A stretch of DNA of 64,000 bases from Escherichia coli. Its GTDB lineage: Bacteria > Pseudomonadota > Gammaproteobacteria > Enterobacterales > Enterobacteriaceae. Position numbers and translations under genes: made by a program. The notes beneath the pieces are model-generated. The model saw only the letters and a program-made list of their open reading frames with translations. It did no database searches and had not been told where the DNA came from. Position 1 is the first letter of the stretch, and every line of letters begins with the position of its first letter. Positions 945 through 56,815 of the stretch are shown in pieces. Location of the stretch: assembly GCF_017348835.2 (NCBI RefSeq), contig NZ_CP071375.1; one strand, written 5' to 3'.

Positions 945-1367
945 AGTCAAAAATCCCCATTCGTGATGTTGTGTTGCTTTGTTTTTATGTGTTAACAAAT
1001 CAGACTGTTCTTTTTTTATACTGCACTGTTTTTGCCTGTCTGATTAAGGGTTTAGCGCAGTATTTTGTGATAATAGCGATTAAAGTCCCTATTTTTCAGT
1101 CGATTAAGAACAGATAATATTCTGAATTTATTGATAGATAAACAGAAAAAAGTGCCTTTGTCAGCATAAAATAACGGCACAAAGGGCGGAATAATTCACT
1201 ACCATTCAGGGGATTATGCTGGGTATTTTTCATTCTCTAATGTTTTAACTTTGTAATTATTGCTGTTAAAAAATTAATCACCTGCCAAAAGAAATAAAAA
1301 AGAGAAAGCCTCCGATTAAATTATTTCGCTACACTGGTTCCACTTTTGTGATTTACACGGGTTACCC

Positions 1368-1751
1368 ATGAAGCTGACCATCATTCGATTAGAAAAATTT
1401 AGCGACCAGGACCGGATTGACCTGCAAAAGATCTGGCCGGAGTATTCCCCTTCCTCTTTACAGGTTGACGATAACCACCGCATCTACGCCGCACGTTTCA
1501 ACGAGCGCCTGCTTGCTGCTGTACGCGTAACCTTGAGCGGCACCGGGGGGGCACTGGATTCTCTGCGCGTGCGGGAAGTCACCCGACGTCGCGGCGTGGG
1601 GCAATATCTGCTGGAAGAGGTGTTAAGTGATAATGCCAGCGTTTCATCCTGGTGGATGGCGGATGCAGGCGTAGAAGATCGCGGTGTGATGACGGCGTTT
1701 ATGCAGGCACTGGGATTTACGGCACAGCAGGGCGGCTGGGAGAAGCGTTAA
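1368..1751 (+). CDS. panZ: PanD maturation factor PanZ (formerly YhhK), GNAT-fold, 127 aa
   Basis: 127-aa ORF MKLTIIRLEKFSDQDRIDLQKIWPEY matches remembered PanZ; position between livK and livJ. Confidence 0.85.
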   Translation: MKLTIIRLEKFSDQDRIDLQKIWPEYSPSSLQVDDNHRIYAARFNERLLAAVRVTLSGTGGALDSLRVREVTRRRGVGQYLLEEVLSDNASVSSWWMADAGVEDRGVMTAFMQALGFTAQQGGWEKR

Positions 1752-2275
1752 TCGCTCTGTGTAAAAAGCAGTTCAATGGATTTGGTTGGGAAAAATAACG
1801 CATTTTCGTTTTCCCCGACTAAAGGGATAAAGCCCAGCGATTTATAAAACGTATGGGCTTTTTCATTCAGCGCCTCGACAAAAAGACCGTGAATACCTAC
1901 CGCTAAAGAGGCTGACCAGACGACTTTCATGGCATGAGCAACCAGTGTTGCTCCCCATCCCTGCCCCTGTAATGAACGATCAATTGCCAGACGCCCAAGA
2001 GTGACGCTGGGAATATTTTTGTAGGGAATTTTTTTCTGTTTCGATTTCGAGGGCAATGCGGCTCGTTCAAAACAACTGCCGGATAATGTGTAATATCCCA
2101 GCACCTGACGTTCTGGAGTGTTGCGACAAAGGATATACGCTCGCAGAATTTTGTTGCGATGTTGACGAACGAGATGTGTCGTCAGAAAGAGATTTAACGC
2201 TTCCTCGCCGCAGTCGAATCGCTGTAGATCATAATCTGCATCATCGGTCAGAATCTCTATCGTCAGATCATCCAT
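1748..2275 (-). CDS. GNAT-family acetyltransferase toxin of a type II TA pair (TacT/AtaT/ItaT-like tRNA-acetylating family), 175 aa
   Basis: 175-aa ORF with acetyl-CoA-binding motif LQGQGWG; lies 6 bp downstream of a DUF1778-type antitoxin ORF on the same strand; stop codon overlaps panZ stop. Confidence 0.75.
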   Translation of the reverse strand: MDDLTIEILTDDADYDLQRFDCGEEALNLFLTTHLVRQHRNKILRAYILCRNTPERQVLGYYTLSGSCFERAALPSKSKQKKIPYKNIPSVTLGRLAIDRSLQGQGWGATLVAHAMKVVWSASLAVGIHGLFVEALNEKAHTFYKSLGFIPLVGENENALFFPTKSIELLFTQSD

Positions 2276-2281
2276 AAATTA

Positions 2282-2548
2282 TTACATTCCCTGAAGACGT
2301 TTTGCCGCACGTTTTAGCTTTTCACCTGGTGACGGTGGATTACTCAGCGCATCCATCACCCGCATCCAGGATTCCTCATTGAGGATCACCCGCCGATGTT
2401 GTTCAATCACTTCCGCAGCCCGCTGCGAAGCGCTGTTCAACATAAATTGGCTGACGGACTGATTAGATATCGCTGCCGCTTCCTCAATCATACTTTTGTC
2501 ATCGTCAGTTAAACGCAGATCGATACGCTGCTTTTTAACAGCAGACAT
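2282..2548 (-). CDS. DUF1778/RHH-type antitoxin (TacA/AtaR-like), 88 aa
   Basis: 88-aa ORF MSAVKKQRIDLRLTDDDKSMIEEAA typical of DUF1778 antitoxins; immediately upstream of the GNAT toxin. Confidence 0.75.
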   Translation of the reverse strand: MSAVKKQRIDLRLTDDDKSMIEEAAAISNQSVSQFMLNSASQRAAEVIEQHRRVILNEESWMRVMDALSNPPSPGEKLKRAAKRLQGM

Positions 2549-2697
2549 GTGAACTCTCCTGCTCCGTATAATATGTACGGCATATCACCGTACAATAAGC
2601 ATATCCTGGATTGTTTAATCTTTCTACAACCATTTCGACAAACACAAAAAAACCCGATGGACGTTAAGCGCACCGGGCATTTTCATTTATCTAACAA

Positions 2698-3801
2698 TTA
2701 CTTCGCATCGGTCGCCGTGCCGTTGGCGTGCCAGTCAAATACGCCGAACTCAAAGCCTTTCAGATCGCCTTTCTCATCCCAGGTCAGCGGTCCCATTACG
2801 GTATCCACGGAGTTCGCTTTCAGGTATTTGGCGATTTCAGCCGGATCGTCAGACTGATTCAGGCCCGCCTGCAAAGATTGCAGCGCGGCGTAGGTGGTCC
2901 AGACGAATGCGCCGCTTGGGTCCTGTTTTTTCGCTTTGATCGCATCAACAATGGGTTTGTTCGCCGGAACCTGATCGTAGTTCTTCGGCTTGGTCACCAG
3001 CAGCCCTTCCGCTGATTCGCCCGCAATGTTAGACAGCGAAACGTTAGCCACACCTTCCGGCCCCATAAACTGAGTTTTCAGCCCTGCCGCGCGTGCCTGA
3101 CGCAGGATTTGCCCCATTTCCGGGTGATAACCGCCGTAGTAAACGAAGTCGATATTCTCTTTTTTCAGACGCGCCACCAGCGTTGAGAAATCTTTTTCCC
3201 CGGCGGTGATACCATCAAAGAACACCACGTTAGCATTGCCTTTCTTCAGGCCGTCCTGCACCGCTCGCGCCAGACCTTCGCCGTATTGCTGTTTGTCGTG
3301 AACGATAGCAATACGCTGCGGTTTCACTTTCTCAAGAATATATTTCGCCGCCGTCGGCCCCTGGTCGGAGTCCAGGCCGGTGGTGCGCAGGATCAGCTGA
3401 TAGCCACGGGCGGTCAGCTCCGGCGCGGTTGCCGCTGGGGTGATCATTAAAATGCCTTCGTCTTCGTAGATGTCAGACGCAGGCTGCGTTGATGAAGAAC
3501 AGAGGTGACCAATCACGTATTTAATGCCGTCGTTAACGACTTTGTTCGCCACCGCAACCGCCTGTTTCGGGTCACAGGCATCGTCATATTTTACGATTTG
3601 CAGTTTGTTGCCTTTAATGCCGCCTTTAGCGTTGATATCCGCAACCGCCTGCTCTGCGCCGGTAAACTCCTGGTCACCGTACTGCGCAACCGGACCGGAC
3701 ATTGCGCCCACGACCGCGACTTTAATATCTTCTGCCAGAGCCATATTGCTGAATGCCAGCGCGATACATCCTGCCAGTAACGCTTTACCCTTTATGTTCA
3801 T
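2698..3801 (-). CDS. livJ: Branched-chain amino acid periplasmic binding protein LivJ, 367 aa
   Basis: ORF track 2698..3858 trimmed to the internal [23 protein letters not shown] signal-peptide start; paralogue of LivK. Confidence 0.9.
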
Positions 3802-4071
3802 CCTGAGAATCCCCATTCTTCTGGTTATTACGTGTGTTGTGATGTTGTTGTTCAGCACTTTATTTCGTTTTATGCATGACTACCCGTGCTTTAGCAGCAT
3901 ACTCTGCTAAAACATACCCGATTTTTATGATATTGGAATAGCTATTTTGACAGTTTATTAACAATCTGCGTGGGGATTGGCGTTTTGCCGGAGGGGAAAT
4001 TGATTATTGTAGAGGCCCAAAAAACAAAAACCCCGGACTCGCATCCAGGGTTCTCTGCTTAATAGCGGAAA

Positions 4072-4926
4072 TTACGCTTCTATAGCAGCGCGCAGTTTTT
4101 TCATCGCGTTCTTTTCCAGCTGGCGTACACGTTCAGCGGAAACACCGTAACGGTCAGCCAGTTCCTGCAACGTGGACTTGTTGTCTTCGTCCAGCCAGCG
4201 CGCACGGATGATGTCCTGGCTGCGTTCGTCCAGACCCTGCATCGCGTCGGTCAGACGATTTGCTGCCTGCTCTTCCCAGTTATCATCTTCAATGCCGTCG
4301 GCAAAGTTAGATGATTTATCCTGCAGATAGAGCACCGGTGCCATCGGTTGGCTGTCGGAATCGTCGTCGGAAGACAGGTCAAAGGTCATGTCCTGTGCCG
4401 CCATACGTGATTCCATCTCACGTACGTCTTTGCTGGTTACGCCCAGTTCACGGGCCACCATTTCGACTTCATCCTGGTTAAACCAGCCCAGACGCTGCTT
4501 GGTTTTACGCAGGTTGAAGAACAGTTTGCGCTGCGCTTTGGTGGTCGCAACTTTGACGATACGCCAGTTACGCAGAACGTATTCGTGGATCTCTGCTTTG
4601 ATCCAGTGGACGGCGAAGGAGACCAGGCGCACACCCACTTCCGGGTTGAAACGGCGCACTGCTTTCATCAGGCCGATGTTACCTTCCTGAATCAAATCCG
4701 CCTGTGGCAGGCCATAGCCCGCATAATTACGAGCAATATGAACAACAAACCGCAGGTGAGACAGGATCAGCGTTTTAGCTGCTTCCAGATCGCCATGGTA
4801 ATGCAGCTTTTCAGCCAGCGCCCGCTCCTCGTCAGCCGACAACATCGGCCACGCGTTAGCTGCCCGGATGTAGGAATCCAGGTTGCCAACTGGGGCTAAA
4901 GCTAAACTTTGCATTTTGTCAGTCAT
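4072..4926 (-). CDS. rpoH: RNA polymerase sigma-32 heat-shock factor RpoH, 284 aa
   Basis: 284-aa [54 protein letters not shown] matches RpoH. Confidence 0.95.
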
Positions 4927-6892: not shown

Positions 6893-8389
6893 TTAATCCT
6901 CTCGGGCAAAAAGTGCCTCTATAAAGTCGTCCGCCTTAAACGGACGCAAATCCTCAATACGTTCGCCGACACCAATGTAGCGGATAGGGATACCAAACTG
7001 GTCAGCCACCGAGAAAATTACCCCGCCTTTCGCCGTGCCGTCCAGTTTCGTTAGCGTGATGCCGGTTAAGCCAACAGCTTCGTGGAACAGTTTGGCCTGG
7101 CTTACCGCGTTCTGCCCGGTGCTGGCATCAATAGTCAGCATAACTTCATGCGGCGCTTCAACGTCGAGTTTCTTCATCACGCGGACGATTTTCTTCAACT
7201 CTTCCATCAGATGCGATTTGTTCTGCAGACGTCCGGCGGTATCGGCAATCAGGACGTCGATATTACGCGCTTTAGCTGCCTGAATGGCGTCGAAGATAAC
7301 AGAGGCGGAATCCGCACCGGTATGCTGGGCAATCACCGGAATATTGTTGCGCTGACCCCAGACCTGAAGCTGTTCAACCGCTGCTGCACGGAAAGTATCG
7401 CCCGCCGCCAGCATCACCGATTTACCCTGCTGCTCAAACTGACGCGCCAGCTTACCAATCGTCGTGGTTTTACCCACACCGTTGACGCCCACCATCAGGA
7501 TCACGAACGGCGTTTTACCTTCAACATTCAGCGGCTCATCGACTTTCGCCAGAATCTCGCCCATCTCTTCTTTCAGCAGGCCATAGAGCGCCTCGGCATC
7601 ACGAAGCTGCTTGCGGGATGCGCCTTCCGTCAGATTGGTGATAATTTTACGTGTGGTTTCCACGCCCACATCGGCGATCAACAGCTGTTCTTCCAGCTCT
7701 TCAAAAAGATCATCGTCGATTTTTTTACCGCGGAACAGGCTGATAAATCCGGAACCGAGATTTTCTTTGGTTTTTAACAGGCTGCGTTTCAGGCGCGCGA
7801 AAAAACCTTCTTTGGTTGGTTTTTCCTGCTCCTGAGCGATTTCTTCCACCGGCTGCTCTTCTTCTGCCGGAGGAACCACTATCACCGCTTCTTCTGCCGC
7901 TTCGGCAGCCAGCGCCTGTGCTTCCAGCTCTTCGTCGGTGATTTCTTCTTTAGCCGCTTCTTCTTCCGCCACTTCGACAATCTCTACGGTTTCCGCTTCA
8001 GCCTGCCACTCTTCTGGCGAAACCTCTTCGGCGTTGACGTCTTCCGGCAACGGCAGCTCTTCACGTTCGATAGCCACTGGCTCCGGCGTTTCTTCTACGA
8101 CCGGTTCCGGCTGTGCAACGACTTCCGCTTCAGGCTGCGCTTTTTCACTTTCAGCAACCTGTTCAGTGACTTCCACAACGTCGGCAGCAAAAGTTTCCGC
8201 CTCGGCTTCAGTATGCGCCTGCGGCTGCTCTTCAACGGCGTGTTCAGAAGCCTTCACAGGCTCTTGCGCCTGAACGATTTCTTCTACAACCGGTTGTTCA
8301 TTCTGAACTTCTGTCTCTTTTTCCGGGGTCTGCTCTTTTTGACCAAAGCCCAGCCAGGAAAAAAAGCCACGTTTTTTTTCTTTCGCCAT
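6893..8389 (-). CDS. ftsY: Signal recognition particle receptor FtsY
   Basis: 498-aa ORF with acidic N-terminal domain and C-terminal SRP GTPase domain (GVNGVGKTT); operon ftsYEX. Confidence 0.95.
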   Translation of the reverse strand: MAKEKKRGFFSWLGFGQKEQTPEKETEVQNEQPVVEEIVQAQEPVKASEHAVEEQPQAHTEAEAETFAADVVEVTEQVAESEKAQPEAEVVAQPEPVVEETPEPVAIEREELPLPEDVNAEEVSPEEWQAEAETVEIVEVAEEEAAKEEITDEELEAQALAAEAAEEAVIVVPPAEEEQPVEEIAQEQEKPTKEGFFARLKRSLLKTKENLGSGFISLFRGKKIDDDLFEELEEQLLIADVGVETTRKIITNLTEGASRKQLRDAEALYGLLKEEMGEILAKVDEPLNVEGKTPFVILMVGVNGVGKTTTIGKLARQFEQQGKSVMLAAGDTFRAAAVEQLQVWGQRNNIPVIAQHTGADSASVIFDAIQAAKARNIDVLIADTAGRLQNKSHLMEELKKIVRVMKKLDVEAPHEVMLTIDASTGQNAVSQAKLFHEAVGLTGITLTKLDGTAKGGVIFSVADQFGIPIRYIGVGERIEDLRPFKADDFIEALFARED

Positions 8390-23636: not shown

Positions 23637-23996
23637 TTATAAATGATTCAAACGCTCATTCAGTGTTTCAATAATATAGGTATTAACAGAGACTTGTTGC
23701 TGCGCAGCCGCATTATTAAGGCGTTCACTCAGCGATTCTGGATAACGTAACGTAAAGGTTTTAATCTTTTCTGTACGCGCATACGGCTCAATACCCGCAG
23801 CTTTACAATCCTCAAGATACTCTCGCAGGGAAAGCTCTCCTTCTTTTTGCAGCCCCTGAATACTGTCAGAGACAAAATCACAATAACCTGACAAGCCCAG
23901 GAATTTGCCACGAAATGCATTCAGTTCTGGCACGTAAGTGATAACTGCAGGTTGCCCGGCAATCTCCATAGAGTTTGGCGTCTTCAGTTTGATCAT
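23637..23996 (-). CDS. HicB-family antitoxin-like protein with C-terminal RHH DNA-binding motif, 119 aa
   Basis: 119-aa ORF; C-terminal TFTLRYPESLSERLNNAAAQQQVSVNTYIIETLNERL resembles a CopG/RHH motif; start codon overlaps the stop of an upstream HicA-like frame (ATGA). Confidence 0.6.
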   Translation of the reverse strand: MIKLKTPNSMEIAGQPAVITYVPELNAFRGKFLGLSGYCDFVSDSIQGLQKEGELSLREYLEDCKAAGIEPYARTEKIKTFTLRYPESLSERLNNAAAQQQVSVNTYIIETLNERLNHL

Positions 23997-24268
23997 GGTT
24001 TTACCCCTATACTTAGTAACCAGTCACGCACGCTTTCTACAGCGCCTTTATCGGTATCTGGCGACGGATGAGGCCGATGGAAACACGCAACGCTCATATT
24101 TAGTATGAACTTACAACGCGAACCTCTTCCTTCCTTAATTTCTCCGCCTAACGCTTTAACCAGAGATTCTATATCAGTCCATTTGATTCCTTGAGGTAAA
24201 GGTGATTTAAATAGCTGATCCAGTGTGTTTTTTTGTTTCTTTCGTAAAGCCTGTACCTGTGTTTACAT
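23993..24268 (-). pseudogene. HicA-like mRNA-interferase toxin frame with in-frame TAA as codon 2 (ATG TAA ...); probably inactivated, or initiated non-canonically
   Basis: Minus-strand frame reads M*TQVQALRKKQKNTLDQLFKSPLPQGIKWTDIESLVKALGGEIKEGRGSRCKFILNMSVACFHRPHPSPDTDKGAVESVRDWLLSIGVKP*; HicA-like GS..F...HP core; only in-frame ATG downstream would give 34 aa. Confidence 0.45.
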
Positions 24269-46355: not shown

Positions 46356-46439
46356 TCAGTTCAGAAGCTGAAGCAGAAAGCGGATCAGTTCCAGCAGCGC
46401 AATTAACGCCCCAAGAACGATGATTGCTTTATCAATCAC
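46356..46439 (-). CDS. dinQ: DinQ, 27-aa SOS-inducible membrane toxin peptide (type I TA-like, regulated by agrAB antisense RNAs), GTG start
   Basis: Minus strand 46439..46356 translates (V/M)IDKAIIVLGALIALLELIRFLLQLLN*; too short for the ORF track; position after gor. Confidence 0.8.
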   Translation of the reverse strand: MIDKAIIVLGALIALLELIRFLLQLLN

Positions 46440-46678: not shown

Positions 46679-47771
46679 GTGTAAGTTCACAGAGATATTG
46701 CAATTGCCTCCGGATAAGTAAGGGGAGATTGCACTATGCAAATGCAGCATCTGATGGTTGGCTATCCTAAGTACTACCAAACGGCCGATTATGCGTTGAG
46801 GCTTTCAGTGATGGCTGATATAGCAACAATGAGAATGAAGGCTCTGCACTTCTGGGATAAACACGGTATTTCTGCAGCTTCTGAAGCCTTTGGCGTGTCC
46901 TGCCGCACGCTTTACTGGTGGCGTCAGTTACTGAACAAGGAAGGACCTGAGGGGCTAATCCCGCACAGTAAGGCACCTCTGGTGCGACGAAAAAAACACT
47001 GGCATCCCGATGTGCTGAAAGAGATTCGACGCCTCAGGACAGAGCTGCCGAACCTCGGTAAAGAGCAGATTTTTGTTCGCCTGAAGCCCTGGTGCGAACA
47101 GCGCTATCTGGCCTGTCCGAGTGTTTCCACCATCGGCAGAATGATCGCTGCCGCACATGATAAAATGCGGATGATACCTGTGCGTCTGGGATCGCGGGGG
47201 AAGGCACTGCTTGTCAAAAAGCGGTCTGCCAAACCCCGCAGGCCAAAGCACTACCGCCCGGTAAAGACAGGTGAGCTCATTGGGATGGACGCCATTGAGC
47301 TCAGAATGGGCGAACTGCGTCGCTATGTCATCACCATGATCGACGAATGCAGCAATTACGCGCTGGCGCTGGCTGTGCCGTCACTCAACAGTGATATCGT
47401 CAATCACTTCTTCAGCCGCGCAGCCCGGTTGTTCCCGGTCGGTATCAGCCAGATAATCACAGATAACGGAAAAGAGTTCCTGGGAAACTTCGACAAAACG
47501 CTGCAGGAAGCCGCTATCAAACACCTCTGGACCTATCCCTACACGCCAAAAATGAACGCTATCTGTGAACGTTTTAACCGGACGTTAAGAGAGCAGTTTA
47601 TTGAATTTAATGAGATTTTACTCTTTGAAGATCTGGCGCTATTTAACCAGAAGCTGGCGGAATATCTGGTGCTGTATAACAGCAAAAGACCCCACAAGGC
47701 GCTCGCACTAATGACGCCCGTGGAATATATTTTAAAAGAGAATAAAAATTGCAATATGTGGTGGACCCATA
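46679..47771 (+). mobile_element. IS481-family insertion sequence (~1.09 kb) with imperfect terminal inverted repeats and 8-bp target-site duplication CATGTCCT
   Basis: CATGTCCT at 46671-46678 and 47772-47779; termini GTGTAAGTTCACAGAGATATTGCAATT and AATTGCAATATGTGGTGGACCCATA are inverted; single rve/DDE transposase fills the element; boundaries uncertain by ~10 bp. Confidence 0.7.
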
Positions 47772-47818
47772 CATGTCCTTGCAATAGTTTCAGTATGGTA
47801 TTAGCATTGATGCGTTAG
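46736..47818 (+). CDS. IS481-family DDE (rve) transposase, 360 aa; last ~15 codons are read from the target duplication and flanking DNA
   Basis: 360-aa ORF with N-terminal HTH region and integrase core (ITDNGKEF, YTPKMNAICERFNRTL); stop codon lies 47 bp beyond the inferred right end. Confidence 0.8.
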   Translation: MQMQHLMVGYPKYYQTADYALRLSVMADIATMRMKALHFWDKHGISAASEAFGVSCRTLYWWRQLLNKEGPEGLIPHSKAPLVRRKKHWHPDVLKEIRRLRTELPNLGKEQIFVRLKPWCEQRYLACPSVSTIGRMIAAAHDKMRMIPVRLGSRGKALLVKKRSAKPRRPKHYRPVKTGELIGMDAIELRMGELRRYVITMIDECSNYALALAVPSLNSDIVNHFFSRAARLFPVGISQIITDNGKEFLGNFDKTLQEAAIKHLWTYPYTPKMNAICERFNRTLREQFIEFNEILLFEDLALFNQKLAEYLVLYNSKRPHKALALMTPVEYILKENKNCNMWWTHTCPCNSFSMVLALMR

Positions 47819-48304: not shown

Positions 48305-48730
48305 ATGAGCAACATTACCATTTATCACAACCCAGCCTGCGGCACATCGCGTAATACGCTGGAGATGATCCGCAACAGCGGTACAGAACCGACCATTATC
48401 CATTATCTGGAAACACCACCAACGCGCGATGAACTGGTAAAACTCATTGCCGATATGGGGATTACCGTACGCGCGCTGCTGCGTAAAAACGTCGAGCCGT
48501 ATGAGGAACTGGGCCTTGCGGAAGATAAATTTACTGACGAGCGGTTAATCGACTTTATGCTTCAGCACCCGATTCTGATTAACCGTCCGATTGTGGTGAC
48601 GCCGCTGGGAACTCGCCTATGCCGCCCCTCGGAAGTGGTGCTGGAAATTCTGCCAGATGCGCAAAAAGGCGCGTTCTCCAAGGAAGATGGCGAGAAAGTG
48701 GTTGATGAAGCGGGTAAGCGGTTGAAATAA
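48305..48730 (+). CDS. arsC: Arsenate reductase ArsC (glutaredoxin-dependent), 141 aa
   Basis: 141-aa ORF MSNITIYHNPACGTSRNTLEMIRNSG with catalytic Cys12. Confidence 0.95.
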   Translation: MSNITIYHNPACGTSRNTLEMIRNSGTEPTIIHYLETPPTRDELVKLIADMGITVRALLRKNVEPYEELGLAEDKFTDERLIDFMLQHPILINRPIVVTPLGTRLCRPSEVVLEILPDAQKGAFSKEDGEKVVDEAGKRLK

Positions 48731-49356: not shown

Positions 49357-50472
49357 ATGTCAATTGACTTTACCCCAGGTGTGATAAATACATATCACGG
49401 CGATATTTATAACCGCACAACAGATACCGACAATGTTAAAACACCAGACACACCGATGTGGCCTTGTGATAATCGGGAAGAACAACAACCCATTAATTCC
49501 ACATTCTCTGGAGAAGGATACAACCCTGAACAATATGATTTAGCGCGGCAACACCTCCCACAAATTTATGCGTGCCGCACGAACACCAAATATACAGATG
49601 CAGACTACTCAAAAGTTGTGGCTCAACTTGTAAGTCTTATTACTAACATTGAATCGATAAGTTCGACACCACTTACGCGGCAGGCACAGGAAATACTTAA
49701 TCAAATTAATAACATTAGATACGAAAAGAACAAAAGTGCTGAATGTCGAATCATTGTTGTCGCTAATCCTAAACCCGACAAGGCAATCATAACTAAAATT
49801 AGCGTAGAAGAGGGAATACCAGTAAGATTCAGTGTCCAAACCATGTTTTCAGATACTAATTTTATTGCTGAACAACGAGCTGACTTACCGACTAATATAA
49901 AAGATATTCAAATCCTGTATCAAAAAATGACGAAGTTATATATTGAACACAGTGAAAATAAAAACAGGATGAAAGTCTTTGCCGGAACCAACTTTATTGA
50001 TTTCAATATGACAGGACAGAACCTGTCCGGGTTCGTTCTAACTTTGTCAAGGTTTTATTTCGAAGATCTACTTAATATAAATTTCACTGACGCAAATTTA
50101 GGTGACACTATTTTTTCACATAAAGAACACCCTACCCCCAAATTATATAAAGACGAACAATATCTTGACAAACAAATCGAAGGTTTATTTTCAACATTAT
50201 TAACCATTAATGACAACTTTTTACGAGCAAAAGCGGAAATTGCTTCGACAATAATTAAATTCTTAGAGGCCAGGATAACCAATCTTTCATACAATGACAT
50301 ATTAAAATATCAGCAAGAATTCCAAAAACAATGTTATAAGCAAGTTAAAGCCTTTACGACACTCTCCCGATACAATAAAATTCAAACATGGGCAGAAATG
50401 TCTGAATATCAATTCGAAGTATTTCAATACGAGACGCTTAACCCAAAAAAATGTCACGTACGCCTTATTTAA
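49357..50472 (+). CDS. yhiS: YhiS-like uncharacterised protein, 371 aa, intact; AT-rich gene
   Basis: 371-aa ORF at the arsC-slp position; Asn/Ile/Lys-rich, a few pentapeptide-repeat-like segments ([11 protein letters not shown]). Confidence 0.6.
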
Positions 50473-52139: not shown

Positions 52140-53168
52140 TTATGCAGCAACGCCTTCCGGTATCAGCGAAGCAATTTGCTTACGCCATTGCGCTTGCTCC
52201 TGTTCGCCTTCTGTACGTTGACCATAAAGTTGCGCTATCTGCGTACCATCATGGGCAAACAATTCCAGACTGGTTACGTAGCCATCGCTGGTCGGTTTAC
52301 GGGTAACCCAGGCTTCAGCAATGCTCTCTTCTAATAGATGAAGAGTAAACGTCGGGTTGAAAATATTCAGCCAACCTTTCATTGGCACCACTTTTTCTAC
52401 CACACCGGTGAAAATCTGTACGCAGCCACGGTTGCCAACAAACACCATGATTTCATTACCATCCTGCTGTGCAGATTCAAGAATTTGCGCCAACGCACTG
52501 TTGGATACTTTGCAGGCCAAATCGTCCGCCACCAGATTGAACGCCTGTTGGCGCGTCAGGTTGTGGCGCTTGAGCAACGTAAAAAACTGATGAACGTCGG
52601 TCATCGCCCGCCACTCTTGCTCGACCACACTGGCATCGACTCGCGTTTGAACAACTGGCGCATCAACGGCTTTTAACTCAAGCGGCGTATTCTCATCGGT
52701 GATAAACCGTGCCAGAAGCTCACTCCATGCCGCCATATCGGTATTGTCGGTGGCATAAACTTTTAGTAATGCATCGCCCTGATGATCAAAGAACTGAATA
52801 CTTTGGCGTTCGCCACGAGCCGTGTTTTCTTTGATGTGGAAAACACTGGCCCATTGATTGAGAAACAGACGTAAATCCAGCGCGCGTGGATTGAGGATCA
52901 ATCCGGCATGTCCGTTCAAATGCTGGTTTGTGAACGCACCAACTTGCTCATGGACTGCATATTCATTACGGCAAATACATTTGGTCTCGCCAACACTTTC
53001 GAGCGCCGCCAGAATTTCACGGATATCGCCGCGCATCCGCCACGCATCGTGCGTGACGCGTGCAAATGCCAGTTCTGCTTCTCTAATATTCATTAACCCT
53101 GCGATGTCACGCGCGTACTTTCCGGGATTTTGTTCTTTTAACTCAAGCCAGCGTGTGTAGTGGTTCAT
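52140..53168 (-). CDS. chuS: Haem-degrading protein ChuS (HemS/ShuS family), 342 aa
   Basis: 342-aa ORF MNHYTRWLELKEQNPGKYARDIAGLMNIREAELAF; adjacent to chuA. Confidence 0.9.
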   Translation of the reverse strand: MNHYTRWLELKEQNPGKYARDIAGLMNIREAELAFARVTHDAWRMRGDIREILAALESVGETKCICRNEYAVHEQVGAFTNQHLNGHAGLILNPRALDLRLFLNQWASVFHIKENTARGERQSIQFFDHQGDALLKVYATDNTDMAAWSELLARFITDENTPLELKAVDAPVVQTRVDASVVEQEWRAMTDVHQFFTLLKRHNLTRQQAFNLVADDLACKVSNSALAQILESAQQDGNEIMVFVGNRGCVQIFTGVVEKVVPMKGWLNIFNPTFTLHLLEESIAEAWVTRKPTSDGYVTSLELFAHDGTQIAQLYGQRTEGEQEQAQWRKQIASLIPEGVAA

Positions 53169-53216
53169 TGTCTCTCTTCCTTCCAGATAAATGCCCCTAA
53201 ATATCGGGGCAGATGA

Positions 53217-55199
53217 TTACCATTGATAACTCACGAAAATTTTTCCGTTACGACCATCCTGTGGGATGCCTTGCGGCGACCAGTACTCTTTGTCGAAAGC
53301 GTTACCCAACACCAAAGTAGTGGTCATACCTTTGAGCGCCTGTTGTCCTTGATAACTGACGTAGAAATCATTCACGCCATAGCCTGGTTGTTTGCTGTAA
53401 CTGCTGCTGATATGTGTTGAGCGATCGGCAAACGTACCAACCCACCCAACAGAGAAGCCACTGTGAGCGATCGGAATATTCAGGGTGCTGGTAACGGTAT
53501 CCGGGTTAATGCTGGAGATGTATTCGCCGGTATCGGTGTCTTTGCCGCGGGTACGGTTATAGGCCACATCAAGGCTAAACAGATCAGTGGTATATTTCGT
53601 CATCACATCCCAGCCCCAGATTTTGGCGTTCGGGACGTTATACGACATAGTCGTCGCCGCCGCGAAATCGACGGTCGTGGAGATGTAATCCTTCGCTTTG
53701 GTATCAAAGTAGCTGGCTTTAAATTCCAGAGCATCATTGGACAACATCAGGTCATCAAAACGCAGCCCAAAACCGTACTCCTGAGTTTCGTTAGTTTCCG
53801 GACGTAAGTTCGGGTTTGACACCCAATAGTTGGTATAGAAGCGACCAATCGAGAAGTGCTTAGAATCGTTATACATTTCGCCCATCGTCGGGGCGCGGAA
53901 TGCCTGGGCATATGAGCCAAATAACATCAGCCAGTTAGTCGGATTGATAGTCATCCCCGCACGAGATGACCATTTGTCGGCATCAACATCTTTGTAACCG
54001 TCACTGCTACCGCGATAACTGTCATAGCGGGTTCCGCCAAGCAGGGTAATCGGCAGATCGCGTAAGGTGATCTCATCCTGTAGCCAGCCGGAGCTAAAAT
54101 CGATTTTTGCTTGCGGGAAGCCCGTCGTCGCGCCGCCCGGATGTTGTTCCTGACGATAATACTCACCGCCATATGTCAGTAAGTGAGAAGCGAAACTGTC
54201 GGCAAAGAGAGTGGAACGGTTCTCCAGCCTGGCTCCTTTTGTTATCTGTTCACGATACTCGCCGGAACTCCCCGTGTTTTGCGCATTAATACGGACTTCC
54301 GACCAATAAATTTTTGCATCTGCATTTAACCAGTCGTTGCCCTGCGGGGCGAGTTTATAAGAAAGCTGCGCATCGCGTTGAATTGTTGAACGATCAACCA
54401 TCGGGTTGCTGCTTTCAGAAGCCTCAACGGTCTGCGGATTTTTTGGTTCACGCGCGTCGTTGTTGTAGTAACGCACTAAACCGCTCAGAGACTGGGCTGA
54501 ATCAATTTGCCAGGTCCCTTTCGCCAGCATGTTATTAATGGACTCGTCATTCGGCGCGGTTTCACCATTGCTCTGGCGTAAATCACCCCGATCGCGACTG
54601 GACCAGGCCACAATACCATCCAGATTTTCAGTTCGCCCAAACGCGCTCGCGCCTAATCCCAGGCTATGGTCCCCCGTGCCGCCAGTACCAAAGACACGAA
54701 AACCACTGCTTTGTCCTTCCTGCAATAAATCTTTTGCATCGACCGTATCGTAGGAGATCACTCCACCCAGCGCGCCACTGCCATACAGTAATGCTGAAGG
54801 TCCGCGAACAATCTCAACACGCTTGATCAGCGCCGGATCGAGAAAAGTGCCATTCAGGTGTCCGGTATCCGTTCCCTGGCGAACACCATCGATAAGAACC
54901 AGCACGCCGCGATGATCATAGCCACGCATATTTACATCCTGACCGTTGGTTCGTCCGGTACCATCCAGAGTAATTCCAGGAACATGACGCAGCAGATCGG
55001 TGGCTGAAGTAGCCGTTTGATTTTCAGGAGCGGAAGTGTCGATGACGCTGACCATCATAGGCGCTTCGAAGGAACTACGGGCATTCCCCGTTGCCGTAAC
55101 GGTCATGGTTTCAGTAGCAAAAGCAAACGTTGGCAAGGTGGCAGAAACAGCCAAGGCCAATAAACTCAAACGCAACGAGGTAAATTGCGGACGTGACAT
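53217..55199 (-). CDS. chuA: TonB-dependent outer membrane haem receptor ChuA, 660 aa
   Basis: 660-aa ORF with signal peptide, TonB-box region ETMTVTA, FRAP and NPNL haem-receptor motifs, C-terminal aromatic residue. Confidence 0.95.
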   Translation of the reverse strand: MSRPQFTSLRLSLLALAVSATLPTFAFATETMTVTATGNARSSFEAPMMVSVIDTSAPENQTATSATDLLRHVPGITLDGTGRTNGQDVNMRGYDHRGVLVLIDGVRQGTDTGHLNGTFLDPALIKRVEIVRGPSALLYGSGALGGVISYDTVDAKDLLQEGQSSGFRVFGTGGTGDHSLGLGASAFGRTENLDGIVAWSSRDRGDLRQSNGETAPNDESINNMLAKGTWQIDSAQSLSGLVRYYNNDAREPKNPQTVEASESSNPMVDRSTIQRDAQLSYKLAPQGNDWLNADAKIYWSEVRINAQNTGSSGEYREQITKGARLENRSTLFADSFASHLLTYGGEYYRQEQHPGGATTGFPQAKIDFSSGWLQDEITLRDLPITLLGGTRYDSYRGSSDGYKDVDADKWSSRAGMTINPTNWLMLFGSYAQAFRAPTMGEMYNDSKHFSIGRFYTNYWVSNPNLRPETNETQEYGFGLRFDDLMLSNDALEFKASYFDTKAKDYISTTVDFAAATTMSYNVPNAKIWGWDVMTKYTTDLFSLDVAYNRTRGKDTDTGEYISSINPDTVTSTLNIPIAHSGFSVGWVGTFADRSTHISSSYSKQPGYGVNDFYVSYQGQQALKGMTTTLVLGNAFDKEYWSPQGIPQDGRNGKIFVSYQW

Positions 55200-55260
55200 A
55201 GCGATTCTCCATGAGGAAAATAAAAAATGCTGGCTGCCTGGGTTAATACCGGGGTGGCTG
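55200..55260 (-). promoter_or_regulatory. chuA 5' leader containing a FourU-type element next to the Shine-Dalgarno (candidate RNA thermometer)
   Basis: Minus strand reads CATTTTTTATTTTCCTCATGGAGAATCGC-ATG: U-run upstream of GGAGA SD; a temperature-sensing leader is remembered for shuA/chuA. Confidence 0.4.
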
Positions 55261-55488
55261 GCGAAAAATAAATTTATTTAAAATTCAGAGCGATAATATT
55301 CGCCGGGTGAGTTTACAGGCGTTTATATCCCATGAAATTGCCTGATAACTCGGCAATTACGCAAAAGCACGCCCTCTTTGTCAGGCAAAACGATATGCCC
55401 CATCAGGAGTGAAGAGAGCTGTGCGTTATCCCTTGCAAATGCTATGGTTTTGTTATCCATATGGTCGTGTTTTGTTAAATGCAAACGT

Positions 55489-55507
55489 GATAATGAGAAT
55501 TATTATC
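55489..55507. promoter_or_regulatory. Fur box in the chuA-chuT divergent region
   Basis: GATAATGAGAATTATTATC, 17/19 match to GATAATGATAATCATTATC. Confidence 0.7.
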
Positions 55508-55836
55508 GATCAATTTTTTATGATCAAGTTTTTTTTTAACCACCATTAACACAATAAACAGGGGGTTATGAAACCTATCCTGCGCCCTGTAAACCACCTT
55601 GTTTTTATGGTTATCCCCCCATGCCTCATCACTAAATTTTGTCGTTAACAGTGATAATTTTTTCTTCTCTTTGCTCTGCAAGCCTCGATATCTCTGGGTT
55701 CTCAGCTTTTTCCTGCGATGAAATTTAGTCGGTAACAAGAACGTTAGCTGACGAAGCATCTTGATAAAAATCAAAAATAAATACGCTTGTAACGCCTTGC
55801 GTATTGAATCGACGGTTGTATTTCATATATAACTCA

Positions 55837-55855
55837 AATGATAATCATGATCATT
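55837..55855. promoter_or_regulatory. Second Fur box immediately upstream of chuT
   Basis: AATGATAATCATGATCATT contains the TGATAATCAT Fur core; lies inside the N-terminally extended chuT ORF, arguing for the downstream start. Confidence 0.6.
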
Positions 55856-55881
55856 CTCAATTTGATAAGAGTTCTCATATT

Positions 55882-56796
55882 ATGCCAAGGATCATCACCA
55901 GGCCGTTTCTTTTTTCCCCACTGACGTTATGTATTTCAGCCGTGGCCTCTGCCGCGAAGAGCACGGTAAAACGAAAAAAATTGTTTACGGCAGTACTGGC
56001 TCTTAGCTGGGCTTTTAGCGTAACGGCTGCCGAACGTATCGTGGTCGCAGGAGGATCGCTGACGGAGCTAATCTACGCGATGGGCGCTGGCGAACGCGTG
56101 GTTGGTGTCGATGAAACGACATCTTATCCACCAGAAACCGCCAAACTGCCGCATATTGGCTACTGGAAACAACTCAGCAGCGAAGGCATTTTGTCACTTC
56201 GCCCGGATAGCGTAATTACCTGGCAGGATGCTGGACCGCAAATTGTGCTCGACCAACTACGGGCGCAGAAAGTCAACGTCGTTACCCTGCCGCGTGTGCC
56301 TGCCACCCTTGAGCAGATGTACGCCAACATTCGCCAACTGGCAAAAACGTTACAGGTTCCTGAACAAGGGGACGCGCTGGTGATACAGATCAACCAACGC
56401 CTGGAGCGAGTACAGCAAAACGTGGCAGCCAAAAAAGCCCCGGTTAAAGCCATGTTTATTCTCTCCGCAGGCGGAAGTGCGCCACAAGTTGCCGGTAAAG
56501 GCAGCGTCGCGGACGCCATTCTTTCGCTTGCCGGAGCAGAAAACGTCGCTACCCACCAGCAGTACAAAAGCTACAGTGCAGAATCACTGATTGCGGCTAA
56601 CCCTGAAGTGATTGTCATAACCTCACAAATGGTCGATGGCGATATTAATCGGCTACGTTCTATTGCTGGAATTACCCACACTGCCGCATGGAAAAACCAG
56701 CGCATTATCACCGTTGATCAAAACCTGATTCTGGGAATGGGTCCGCGTATTGCTGATGTCGTTGAGTCTTTACACCAGCAGCTTTGGCCGCAATAA
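55882..56796 (+). CDS. chuT: Periplasmic haem-binding protein ChuT; start uncertain (304 aa from 55882, 330 aa from 55804)
   Basis: ORF track 55804..56796; signal peptide-like KKLFTAVLALSWAFSVTAA; Fur box at 55837-55855 favours the ATG at 55882. Confidence 0.8.
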   Translation: MPRIITRPFLFSPLTLCISAVASAAKSTVKRKKLFTAVLALSWAFSVTAAERIVVAGGSLTELIYAMGAGERVVGVDETTSYPPETAKLPHIGYWKQLSSEGILSLRPDSVITWQDAGPQIVLDQLRAQKVNVVTLPRVPATLEQMYANIRQLAKTLQVPEQGDALVIQINQRLERVQQNVAAKKAPVKAMFILSAGGSAPQVAGKGSVADAILSLAGAENVATHQQYKSYSAESLIAANPEVIVITSQMVDGDINRLRSIAGITHTAAWKNQRIITVDQNLILGMGPRIADVVESLHQQLWPQ

Positions 56797-56815
56797 ATGG
56801 ATTTAAATCAGACGA

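What the first reader, a model, noticed from the sequence alone, without database searches (positions are those of the whole stretch)
1748..2548. GNAT-toxin/DUF1778-antitoxin module wedged between panZ and livJ
A 175-aa GNAT acetyltransferase with the acetyl-CoA motif LQGQGWG and an 88-aa DUF1778/RHH-like protein 6 bp upstream form a classic antitoxin-then-toxin operon on the minus strand. The toxin stop codon overlaps the panZ stop on the opposite strand, so the module is inserted with no spare DNA. This family (TacT, AtaT, ItaT, KacT) acetylates aminoacyl-tRNAs; the tRNA specificity of this copy cannot be read from the sequence. It is absent from the K-12 layout as I recall it.
Basis: partly seen in the sequence, partly recalled or inferred. 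Interest (0 to 1): 0.55.

Follow-up and report, generated by a model that had tools for sequence, protein, structure and literature searches.

The report
Known AtaR–AtaT toxin–antitoxin module
This gene pair is the already well-studied E. coli AtaR–AtaT toxin–antitoxin system, whose toxin stops protein synthesis by acetylating charged tRNAs. It sits at its usual chromosomal site and differs from the crystallised proteins by one residue each, so it is ordinary.

Summary
Two minus-strand ORFs, 88 aa at 2282–2548 and 175 aa at 1748–2275, lie 6 bp apart, and the toxin's stop overlaps panM/panZ's stop by 4 bp.

They are the published AtaR–AtaT system of enterohaemorrhagic E. coli.
- The toxin matches PDB 6GTS chain A at 174/175 residues (C65S).
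- The antitoxin matches AtaR in 6AJM/6GTO/6GTS at 87/88 residues (T62M).
- All 20 AtaT residues named by mutagenesis or structure as important are intact.

PGAP names the genes ataR/ataT. The module occurs at this same livJ–panM site in 1,624 of 5,426 complete E. coli genomes (1,612 full length), always chromosomal and single-copy. K-12 lacks it and has an unrelated 187-bp REP-like spacer.

It is in fact published for this protein: Met-tRNAfMet, and later Gly-, Trp-, Tyr- and Phe-tRNAs.

Small additions from this work:
- S65 is a common allele (588 genomes) and probably the ancestral one.
- AtaR M62 is private to two pig isolates.
- The module occupies the identical site in E. albertii and E. 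whittamii, with about three-fold lower synonymous divergence than its flanks.
- "No spare DNA" holds only on the panM side.

Verdict: already known, low interest.

The parts
2282..2548 (-). ataR: the 88-aa antitoxin. It has an N-terminal ribbon-helix-helix DNA-binding part (with R8, D10, R12) and a C-terminal toxin-binding part. It carries the rare T62M allele.
   Evidence: ORF. 87/88 identical to AtaR in PDB 6AJM/6GTO/6GTS. Pfam TacA1 PF08681 at E = 9.5e-26. PGAP names it ataR in the identical PE164 record. The M62 allele is in only 2 of 5,426 genomes. The equivalents of KacA R8/D10/R12 are present (sequence; PMC6698736).
1748..2275 (-). ataT: the 175-aa GNAT toxin, an aminoacyl-tRNA N-alpha-acetyltransferase. 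It carries the S65 allele.
   Evidence: ORF. 174/175 identical to PDB 6GTS_A at E = 9e-116. GNAT Pfam domains. L27, F30, H34, R37, R40, N41, R71, S76-K79, K81, K82, P84, Y85, R95, G108, L136, Y144 and K165 are all intact (against PMC7595197). The S65 allele is in 588 genomes and C65 in 1,024.
2276..2281 (-). 6-bp spacer between the ataR stop and the ataT start. A weak Shine-Dalgarno-like AGGGAA lies 12-17 nt upstream of the ataT ATG, inside ataR.
   Evidence: Read directly from the sequence. That the toxin is translated less than the antitoxin is an inference, not shown here.
1748..1751 (.). TTAA: the 4-bp overlap of the convergent stop codons of panM (+) and ataT (-).
   Evidence: The same junction is present in O157:H7, Ecol_743, E. 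albertii, E. whittamii and L010.
2564..2594 (-). Putative AtaR operator. The main palindrome is TGTACGG-N7-CCGTACA (2574-2580 / 2588-2594). A second, weaker pair CCGTA-N7-TACGG (2564-2568 / 2576-2580) shares the middle half-site.
   Evidence: Inverted repeat I1. The GTACGG/CCGTAC arms are invariant in 6 alleles from 4 Escherichia species, while the 7-nt centre varies and the promoter-proximal half-site varies in E. albertii and E. whittamii. The literature says the AtaR4-AtaT2 hexamer binds a palindrome in the operator (PMC6698736; PMC8138530). The published operator sequence itself could not be read.
2568..2595 (-). Putative sigma-70 promoter of ataRT on the minus strand: -35 TTGTAC (2590-2595), a 16-nt spacer, and -10 TATTAT (2568-2573). 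The operator palindrome fills the spacer.
   Evidence: Read by eye from the sequence. It falls below the threshold of the consensus scan, which found no promoter. Inference only.
2556..2560 (-). Shine-Dalgarno AGGAG, ending 7 nt upstream of the ataR ATG.
   Evidence: Sequence. Conserved in all 6 alleles.
2646..2684 (-). Intrinsic terminator of livJ: a hairpin followed by U7 on the minus strand. It separates livJ from the ataRT promoter.
   Evidence: RNA fold gives -17.6 kcal/mol, z = -3.5, with 0 of 200 shuffles as stable. The window has a G.U pair where O157 has A-U, so pairing is kept on the minus strand only. Conserved in all alleles.
1368..1751 (+). panM/panZ, the neighbouring gene that converges on ataT. 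It is context and not part of the module.
   Evidence: NCBIfam PanM equivalog at 186.8 bits. PGAP annotation.
2698..3801 (-). livJ, the upstream neighbour on the same strand. It is context and not part of the module.
   Evidence: PGAP annotation of the PE164 record, which is identical over 1748-2700 and differs from the whole window by 2 SNPs and 1 indel, mapped to window coordinates.

Best explanation
This is the chromosomal type II toxin-antitoxin operon ataR-ataT of Escherichia coli, at its standard site between livJ and panM.

Transcription and control. The operon is transcribed on the minus strand from a promoter just downstream of the livJ terminator. AtaR is translated first and AtaT second. 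AtaR dimerises through its N-terminal ribbon-helix-helix domain. Its C-terminal half wraps AtaT and stops AtaT from forming the homodimer it needs for activity. The resulting AtaT-AtaR4-AtaT hexamer binds the palindromic operator overlapping the promoter and represses the operon, and an excess of toxin loosens that repression.

Toxic activity. [quoted passage not shown] Met-tRNAfMet was described first. Gly-, Trp-, Tyr- and Phe-tRNAs, which share G-C pairs in the lower acceptor stem, were shown later. The acetylated tRNAs cannot be used and translation stops.

What is shown here: the identity of both proteins, the intactness of all named functional residues, the conserved operator arms, the genomic position, and purifying selection on the toxin.

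What is taken from the literature on the O157:H7 proteins: the enzymology, the neutralisation mechanism and the autoregulation.

What is inferred: that the S65 and M62 alleles behave like the studied ones, and the exact promoter.
For: Identity: the toxin is 174/175 identical to PDB 6GTS_A and the antitoxin 87/88 to 6AJM_C/6GTS. The Pfam domains are GNAT and TacA1.

Annotation and position: RefSeq annotates ataT/ataR at this exact place in a record whose DNA is 100% identical over 1748-2700. The same arrangement is found in O157:H7, the strain in which AtaRT (ECs4308-4307) was characterised (PMC7470980).

Functional residues: the catalytic Y144, the acetyl-CoA residue G108 and all tRNA-contact and pocket residues named in PMC7595197 are intact.

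Allele S65: it is a common natural allele. S65 in 588 genomes plus C65 in 1,024 genomes gives 1,612, which is every full-length copy. S65 is also the form in E. albertii, E. whittamii and L010.

Selection: the toxin is under strong purifying selection, with 1 non-synonymous against 15 synonymous differences from E. albertii, dN/dS about 0.02.

Operator: the palindrome arms are identical to those of O157 and invariant across 6 alleles.

Published mechanism: PMC7595197, PMC8138530 and PMC6698736.
Against: Nothing contradicts the identification.

The AtaR T62M allele is rare (2 of 5,426 genomes) and lies in helix alpha-C of the toxin-binding region. Its effect has not been tested. In the 73%-identical KacA, residue 62 is not among the listed toxin contacts (W61, V64, A67, I68), and natural alleles have T, A or M at this position.

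The promoter is below the threshold of the consensus scan.

The physiological substrate is still disputed in the literature: initiator tRNA only, or several elongator tRNAs.

The biological role of the module is not established. PADLOC has no match.
Confidence: 0.97

Rival explanations
1. The main cellular job of this AtaT is protein lysine acetylation rather than tRNA poisoning. One report says O157:H7 AtaT acetylates the type III secretion translocon EspB at K206, which stabilises EspB and raises virulence.
For: PMC7957018 reports attenuated adhesion and colonisation for an ataT deletion mutant and acetylation of EspB by AtaT. The window's protein differs from that enzyme by one residue.
Against: It is a single study. 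It does not exclude the tRNA activity, which is supported by crystal structures with tRNA, in-vivo LC-MS and mutagenesis (PMC7595197). About 30% of E. coli genomes of many pathotypes carry the module. Whether those strains, or this one, have the LEE/EspB system was not examined. At most this is an added function.
Confidence: 0.1
2. In this lineage the module is a decaying or inactive remnant, because of antitoxin T62M and toxin S65, with no remaining toxin activity.
For: AtaR M62 is private to two pig isolates. At the same site, 10 other genomes carry a degenerate version with a truncated toxin, so decay does happen at this locus.
Against: Both ORFs are full length with canonical start codons, and ataR has a strong Shine-Dalgarno sequence. 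All named functional residues are intact. S65 is the common, probably ancestral allele. A single non-synonymous change in each gene relative to the crystallised proteins is no sign of decay. An inactive antitoxin next to an intact toxin would be lethal, not neutral.
Confidence: 0.02
3. The module works as an anti-phage abortive-infection system, or as a selfish 'addiction' cassette that stabilises this chromosome segment. The tRNA acetylation would be the effector step.
For: Toxin-antitoxin modules in general have been linked to abortive infection (background in PMC7470980). The module's synonymous divergence between species is about three-fold lower than that of its flanks (Fisher p = 3e-7). 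It is present or absent among strains. This is the pattern expected for an accessory element that spreads by recombination.
Against: Neither protein matches any PADLOC defence model. No phage, integrase or other defence genes adjoin it. No experiment in the papers read shows phage protection by AtaRT. This concerns the biological role and is compatible with the best explanation rather than an alternative to the mechanism.
Confidence: 0.15

Closest known systems
AtaR-AtaT of E. coli O157:H7 (ECs4308-ECs4307; PDB 6GTS, 6GTP, 6GTQ, 6AJM, 6AJN, 7CHD)
   Same: It is the same system. The toxin is 174/175 and the antitoxin 87/88 identical. The gene order, the 6-bp spacer, the 4-bp overlap with panM, the position between livJ and panM and the operator palindrome arms are all the same. 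DNA identity to O157:H7 over the module and spacer is 98.8%.
   Different: The toxin has Ser65 instead of Cys65, which is the other common natural allele and probably the ancestral one. The antitoxin has Met62 instead of Thr62, which is rare. There are 9 substitutions in the 149-bp ataR-livJ spacer, three of them in or beside the centre of the operator but none in its arms.
KacA-KacT of Klebsiella pneumoniae (PDB 5XUN, 5ZGN)
   Same: It is the sister system. The toxin matches at E = 2e-74 and the antitoxin at E = 4e-38 over their full lengths. The paper gives 67% and 73% identity to AtaT and AtaR (PMC6698736). It forms the same T-A2-A2-T hexamer on a palindromic operator and uses the same DNA-reading residues R8 and R12.
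   Different: It belongs to a different species and locus. Its tRNA targets were unknown at the time of the cited papers. It is a paralogous family member and not the same gene.
TacA-TacT (Salmonella), ItaR-ItaT (E. coli HS), AtaR2-AtaT2 (E. coli O157:H7)
   Same: [quoted passage not shown]
   Different: They are distant in sequence. AtaT2 is 29.2% identical to AtaT, and the other GNAT-toxin chains in the PDB match at only E = 1e-21 to 1e-4. They have different substrates: Gly only for AtaT2, Ile/Val/Met for ItaT, and several for TacT. The AtaT residues that read the lower acceptor stem (S76-K79) are not conserved outside the AtaT/KacT clade.

Membership tests
AtaR-AtaT (GNAT/RHH type II toxin-antitoxin system of E. 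coli) | The toxin is a GNAT-fold protein with the acetyl-CoA motif (Q-x-x-G-x-G, G108) and the catalytic Tyr144. | tested here: met
   Pfam GNAT domains over residues 92-156. QGQGWG at residues 103-108, with G108 and Y144 present. Their roles come from PMC7595197.
AtaR-AtaT (GNAT/RHH type II toxin-antitoxin system of E. coli) | Orthology with the characterised AtaT and AtaR proteins: near-identity over the full length. | tested here: met
   174/175 to 6GTS_A at E = 9e-116, and 87/88 to 6AJM_C at E = 5e-51.
AtaR-AtaT (GNAT/RHH type II toxin-antitoxin system of E. coli) | A DUF1778/TacA-type ribbon-helix-helix antitoxin encoded immediately upstream in the same operon. | tested here: met
   Pfam TacA1 PF08681 at E = 9.5e-26. 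The gene lies 6 bp upstream on the same strand.
AtaR-AtaT (GNAT/RHH type II toxin-antitoxin system of E. coli) | The tRNA acceptor-stem and aminoacyl-pocket residues that set AtaT's substrate range (H34, R37, R40, R71, S76, K77, S78, K79, K81, K82, Y85, R95, L27, L136). | tested here: met
   All are identical to the residues tested by mutagenesis in PMC7595197.
AtaR-AtaT (GNAT/RHH type II toxin-antitoxin system of E. coli) | The same chromosomal position as the prototype, between livJ and panM. | tested here: met
   O157:H7 strain WS4202 has livJ-ataR-ataT-panM with the same junctions. So do 1,612 other complete genomes.
AtaR-AtaT (GNAT/RHH type II toxin-antitoxin system of E. coli) | A palindromic operator in the promoter region that is bound by the AtaR4-AtaT2 complex. 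| tested here: inconclusive
   A palindrome TGTACGG-N7-CCGTACA lies 26-46 bp upstream of the ataR ATG. Its core GTACGG/CCGTAC arms are identical in O157 and invariant in 6 alleles. Binding cannot be tested here, and the paper with the operator sequence is not held.
AtaR-AtaT (GNAT/RHH type II toxin-antitoxin system of E. coli) | The toxin arrests growth when expressed alone and is neutralised by the cognate antitoxin. | not testable with these tools
   Shown for the O157 proteins (PMC7595197). For this allele pair (S65 / M62) it is inferred only.
AtaR-AtaT (GNAT/RHH type II toxin-antitoxin system of E. coli) | Acetyl-CoA-dependent N-alpha-acetylation of aminoacyl-tRNA. | not testable with these tools
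   Shown for the O157 protein in vitro and in vivo. Inferred here from 99.4% identity.
Catalogued anti-phage defence systems (PADLOC-DB 2.0) | A match of either protein to a defence-system model. | tested here: not met
   No family at E <= 0.01 for either protein.

The most novel reading that the evidence does not exclude
The fixed tail-to-tail overlap of ataT with panM may be functional rather than an accident of insertion. PanM/PanZ is a GNAT-fold acetyl-CoA/CoA sensor that controls pantothenate, and hence CoA, synthesis. AtaT is an acetyl-CoA-dependent toxin. The two genes converge with overlapping stop codons, and no significant intrinsic terminator lies between them. Each transcript must therefore read into the other gene, which could couple toxin expression to CoA metabolism through antisense or transcriptional interference. 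The same junction in four Escherichia species is compatible with this, but a single ancestral insertion explains it just as well.
Probability: 0.05. Interest if true: 0.45.

Novelty: already known. Interest (0 to 1): 0.08.

Why it matters
It matters little as a discovery. The system has crystal structures of the toxin alone, with the antitoxin, and with tRNA, together with defined substrates and a described mode of autoregulation, and RefSeq already names the genes.

The modest value of this check is in the detail.
- The reference Cys65 toxin used in all the structural work is the derived allele. Ser65 is the form shared with other Escherichia species.
- The panM–livJ interval has at least three states: a REP-like spacer, ataRT, or a degenerate module with a TacA-type antitoxin and a toxin remnant.
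- ataRT alleles do not follow species boundaries. Synonymous divergence between E. coli and E. albertii is 0.13 in ataT against 0.39 in livJ. This suggests the module moves between Escherichia species by homologous recombination of its flanks.

These points are useful to anyone studying the population biology of chromosomal toxin–antitoxin modules, but they are not surprising.

Tried and rejected
1. NCBIfam HMMs. There was no specific AtaT or AtaR model hit, only sub-threshold rimI, MobA and RelB matches. This was uninformative and the PDB comparison settled the identity.

2. Consensus promoter scan. It found no promoter in 1200–4100. The promoter I give was read by eye and is marked as inference.

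3. Jurenas et al. 2019 (PMID 30718814), the paper with the operator structure. It is not held, so the published operator sequence could not be compared. I relied on reviews and on the KacAT paper.

4. Insertion by a mobile element. Only short 10–13-nt repeats, likely chance matches, flank the module, and no integrase or IS element is adjacent. Homology with K-12 breaks exactly at the two stop codons, and K-12 has unrelated REP-like DNA there. I rejected a simple insertion into an empty site, and the direction of the event is left open.

5. Identity with AtaT2 or ItaT. Rejected: AtaT2 is 29% identical to AtaT, and the window has no second GNAT toxin–antitoxin module in the PE164 annotation.

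6. PADLOC defence models. No match.

7. Terminators between panM and ataT. A hairpin followed by a U-tract on the + strand inside ataT (1829–1863) is not significant (z = −1.75). There is no structure on the − strand downstream of the ataT stop (z = +0.5).

8. Structure prediction. Not run, because solved structures of near-identical proteins exist.

9. The genome-contig scan. It returned only close relatives, 3 loci, all Escherichia. It says nothing about more distant genera.

Full report
**Observation.** They are 6 bp apart. The 127-aa ORF at 1368..1751 on the + strand is PanM/PanZ, matching the NCBIfam equivalog at 186.8 bits against a cut-off of 68. Its TAA stop and the toxin's TAA stop share the tetranucleotide TTAA at 1748–1751. 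The motif LQGQGWG is at toxin residues 102–108. On the other side, 149 bp (2549–2697) separate the antitoxin start from the livJ stop, so the module is flush only against panM.

**Identity.** The toxin matches solved AtaT chains over its full length. It is 174/175 identical to 6GTS_A (E = 9e-116), and the only difference is Ser65 for Cys65. The antitoxin is 87/88 identical to the AtaR chain of 6AJM/6GTO/6GTS (E = 5e-51), with Met62 for Thr62. The next best hits are KacT and KacA of Klebsiella (E = 2e-74 and 4e-38). Other GNAT toxins are far weaker. Pfam finds GNAT domains in the toxin and TacA1/DUF1778 in the antitoxin.

The DNA of 1748–2700 is 100% identical to E. coli PE164 (a pig isolate) and 98.8% identical to O157:H7 strains. 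RefSeq annotates ataT, ataR, panM and livJ there. The literature places ataRT at ECs4308–ECs4307 in O157:H7 Sakai (PMC7470980). The whole window is the reverse complement of PE164 246520–310519, apart from two SNPs and a 1-nt indel.

**Function, taken from published work on the O157 proteins.** AtaT is an acetyl-CoA-dependent acetyltransferase that modifies the alpha-amino group of aminoacyl-tRNAs. It was first reported to be specific for initiator Met-tRNAfMet. It was later shown to acetylate Gly-, Trp-, Tyr- and Phe-tRNAs at least as well, and to block global translation rather than initiation. Substrates are selected through G-C pairs in the lower acceptor stem and a hydrophobic pocket for the amino acid (PMC7595197).

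AtaT must dimerise to be active. AtaR prevents dimerisation, and an AtaT–AtaR4–AtaT hexamer binds a palindromic operator and represses the operon. Excess toxin weakens binding (PMC8138530; PMC6698736).

I checked every residue the mutagenesis and structure work names: L27, F30, H34, R37, R40, N41, R71, S76, K77, S78, K79, K81, K82, P84, Y85, R95, G108, L136, Y144 and K165. All are present in this copy.

**The two substitutions.**
- A 41-mer centred on codon 65 matches 588 genomes with the Ser allele and 1,024 with the Cys allele. Together these are all 1,612 full-length copies.
- Ser65 is also found in E. albertii, E. whittamii and a third Escherichia genome. It is therefore probably ancestral, and the crystallised Cys65 is derived.
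- AtaR Met62 is present in only two genomes, PE164 and F2_81, both from pigs.
- Residue 62 lies in helix alpha-C of the toxin-binding half. In KacA the listed contacts are W61, V64, A67 and I68, not residue 62. Natural alleles have T, A or M at this position.
- The DNA-reading residues R8, D10 and R12 are present.

**Regulatory DNA.** The features upstream of ataR, read on the minus strand, are these.
- The livJ terminator at about 2646–2684 is a hairpin followed by U7, at −17.6 kcal/mol with z = −3.5. A G.U pair in the window replaces an A-U pair in O157, so pairing is preserved on the livJ strand only.
- A perfect palindrome TGTACGG-N7-CCGTACA lies at 2574–2594.
- An AGGAG Shine–Dalgarno sequence follows it.

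In an alignment of six alleles from four species, the GTACGG/CCGTAC arms never vary, while the 7-nt centre does. A second, promoter-proximal half-site varies in two species. A plausible promoter (−35 TTGTAC, 16 nt, −10 TATTAT) brackets the palindrome, but it falls below the threshold of the consensus scan, so it is inference. I could not read the paper that gives the operator sequence.

**Distribution and history.** The module is in 1,624 of 5,426 complete E. coli genomes, always on the chromosome and in one copy. panM is in 5,424 of them. K-12 has a 187-bp REP-like spacer that shares no similarity with the module, and homology breaks exactly at the two stop codons. Ten genomes carry a third state: a different 94-aa TacA-family antitoxin next to a 3' remnant of ataT.

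A scan of species-representative genomes found close relatives only in E. albertii, E. whittamii and one further Escherichia genome. All sit at the same livJ–ataR–ataT–panM site with the same 4-bp overlap.

Synonymous divergence between the window and E. albertii:

| Gene | dS |
|---|---|
| ataT | 0.13 |
| ataR | 0.09 |
| livJ | 0.39 |
| panM | 0.37 |

That is 20 synonymous differences in about 182 sites against 106 in about 351 (Fisher p = 3e-7). The ataT divergence between species is no larger than between two E. coli alleles (0.15). The module is also AT-richer, at 46% GC and GC3 0.43–0.48, against 55–56% and 0.62–0.63 for the flanking genes.

The simplest reading is one ancient acquisition at this junction, followed by exchange between lineages and species through homologous recombination. 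Whether K-12 lost the module or never had it cannot be decided with the data here. The toxin is under strong purifying selection, with dN/dS about 0.02 against E. albertii, which argues against decay.

**Rivals.**
- One paper reports that AtaT also acetylates the translocon EspB and promotes EHEC virulence (PMC7957018). That would be an added role and not a replacement.
- A defence or addiction role is possible, but PADLOC has no match and the neighbouring genes are ordinary housekeeping genes.
- Convergent transcription of panM and ataT with no significant terminator between them leaves room for antisense coupling. No evidence supports it.

**Verdict.** Novelty: already known. Interest: low.

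Noticed in passing
window 1493-1673 (inside panM, 1368-1751 +): A roughly 180-bp patch of panM carries 17 substitutions absent from O157:H7, K-12, Ecol_743 and UID2309220033, although the surrounding DNA is 99.3-100% identical to O157:H7. Only 2 of 5,426 genomes (PE164, F2_81) match panM at >=99%. The amino-acid changes are E60G, R87S, N88D, P90A, G91S and C94S. They lie outside the PanD-contact elements described for PanZ (N-terminus, 43-48, 66-76). It looks like a short recombination import from an unidentified donor. Window panM is no closer to E. albertii, E. whittamii or L010 (90-93% identity over the whole gene); the patch itself was not compared with them.
   Followed up: partly
window 2549-2697 (ataR-livJ spacer): This spacer has 9 differences in 149 bp from O157:H7 on an otherwise 99.5% O157-like backbone. 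Individual pieces match alleles of E. whittamii (next to the livJ stop), L010 (terminator loop) and Ecol_743 (operator centre). The spacer is therefore a small mosaic.
   Followed up: partly
L002 (E. coli UID2309220033) 2501-2989; the same panM-livJ site: Ten complete genomes carry a third allele at this site. It has a different 94-aa TacA-family antitoxin (about 76% DNA identity to ataR) beside a 65-aa C-terminal remnant of ataT, plus extra REP-like DNA before livJ.
   Followed up: partly
window 49357-50472 (+): This is an intact 371-aa ORF in the window. The same gene is annotated as a frameshifted pseudogene in PE164, which has one extra A near window position 50444. That base is the only indel between the window and PE164, alongside SNPs at 7971 and 10258. 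The protein's function was not examined.
   Followed up: partly
window 23637-24223 (-), between nikR and yhhJ: A second toxin-antitoxin pair lies here: HicB antitoxin (119 aa, 23637-23996) and a HicA-family toxin (23993-24223). The full-length HicA reading frame has no ATG/GTG/TTG start. PGAP starts it at CTG (24223), and the first ATG would give only 34 aa. The toxin may be poorly translated or degenerate.
   Followed up: partly
window 46736-47818 and 48305-48730: An IS481-family transposase gene sits next to arsC. No arsR or arsB is annotated in this stretch of the PE164 record, so the ars operon appears to be truncated here. The type I toxin gene dinQ is adjacent at 46356-46439 (coordinates mapped).
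   Followed up: no
window about 52140-61093: The chu/shu haem-uptake cluster (chuA, chuS, shuT, hutW, hutX, chuY, shuU and an ATPase gene) lies between yhiD and dctR. chuA is known as a marker used in E. coli phylogroup typing (from my own knowledge). This fits the O157-like backbone of the window.
   Followed up: no
window 29616-31238 and 31500-33107 (-): Two adjacent paralogous DUF4049 genes (540 and 535 aa) of unknown function lie between yhiM and yhiY/yhiI.
   Followed up: no
window 1829-1863 (+), inside the 3' part of ataT: A hairpin followed by UUUUUC on the panM strand lies 78-115 nt past the panM stop and is conserved in O157 and E. albertii. It could act as the panM terminator embedded in ataT coding sequence, but it is not significant against shuffles (-15.7 kcal/mol, z = -1.75). 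No structure is found downstream of the ataT stop on the minus strand.
   Followed up: partly
L008 (E. albertii NBRC 107761) about 1-1350: In E. albertii only 125 of the 270 bp of the livJ-rpoH spacer match the window, and rpoH was not found within the 3 kb fetched upstream of ataT. Something different may lie beyond livJ there.
   Followed up: no
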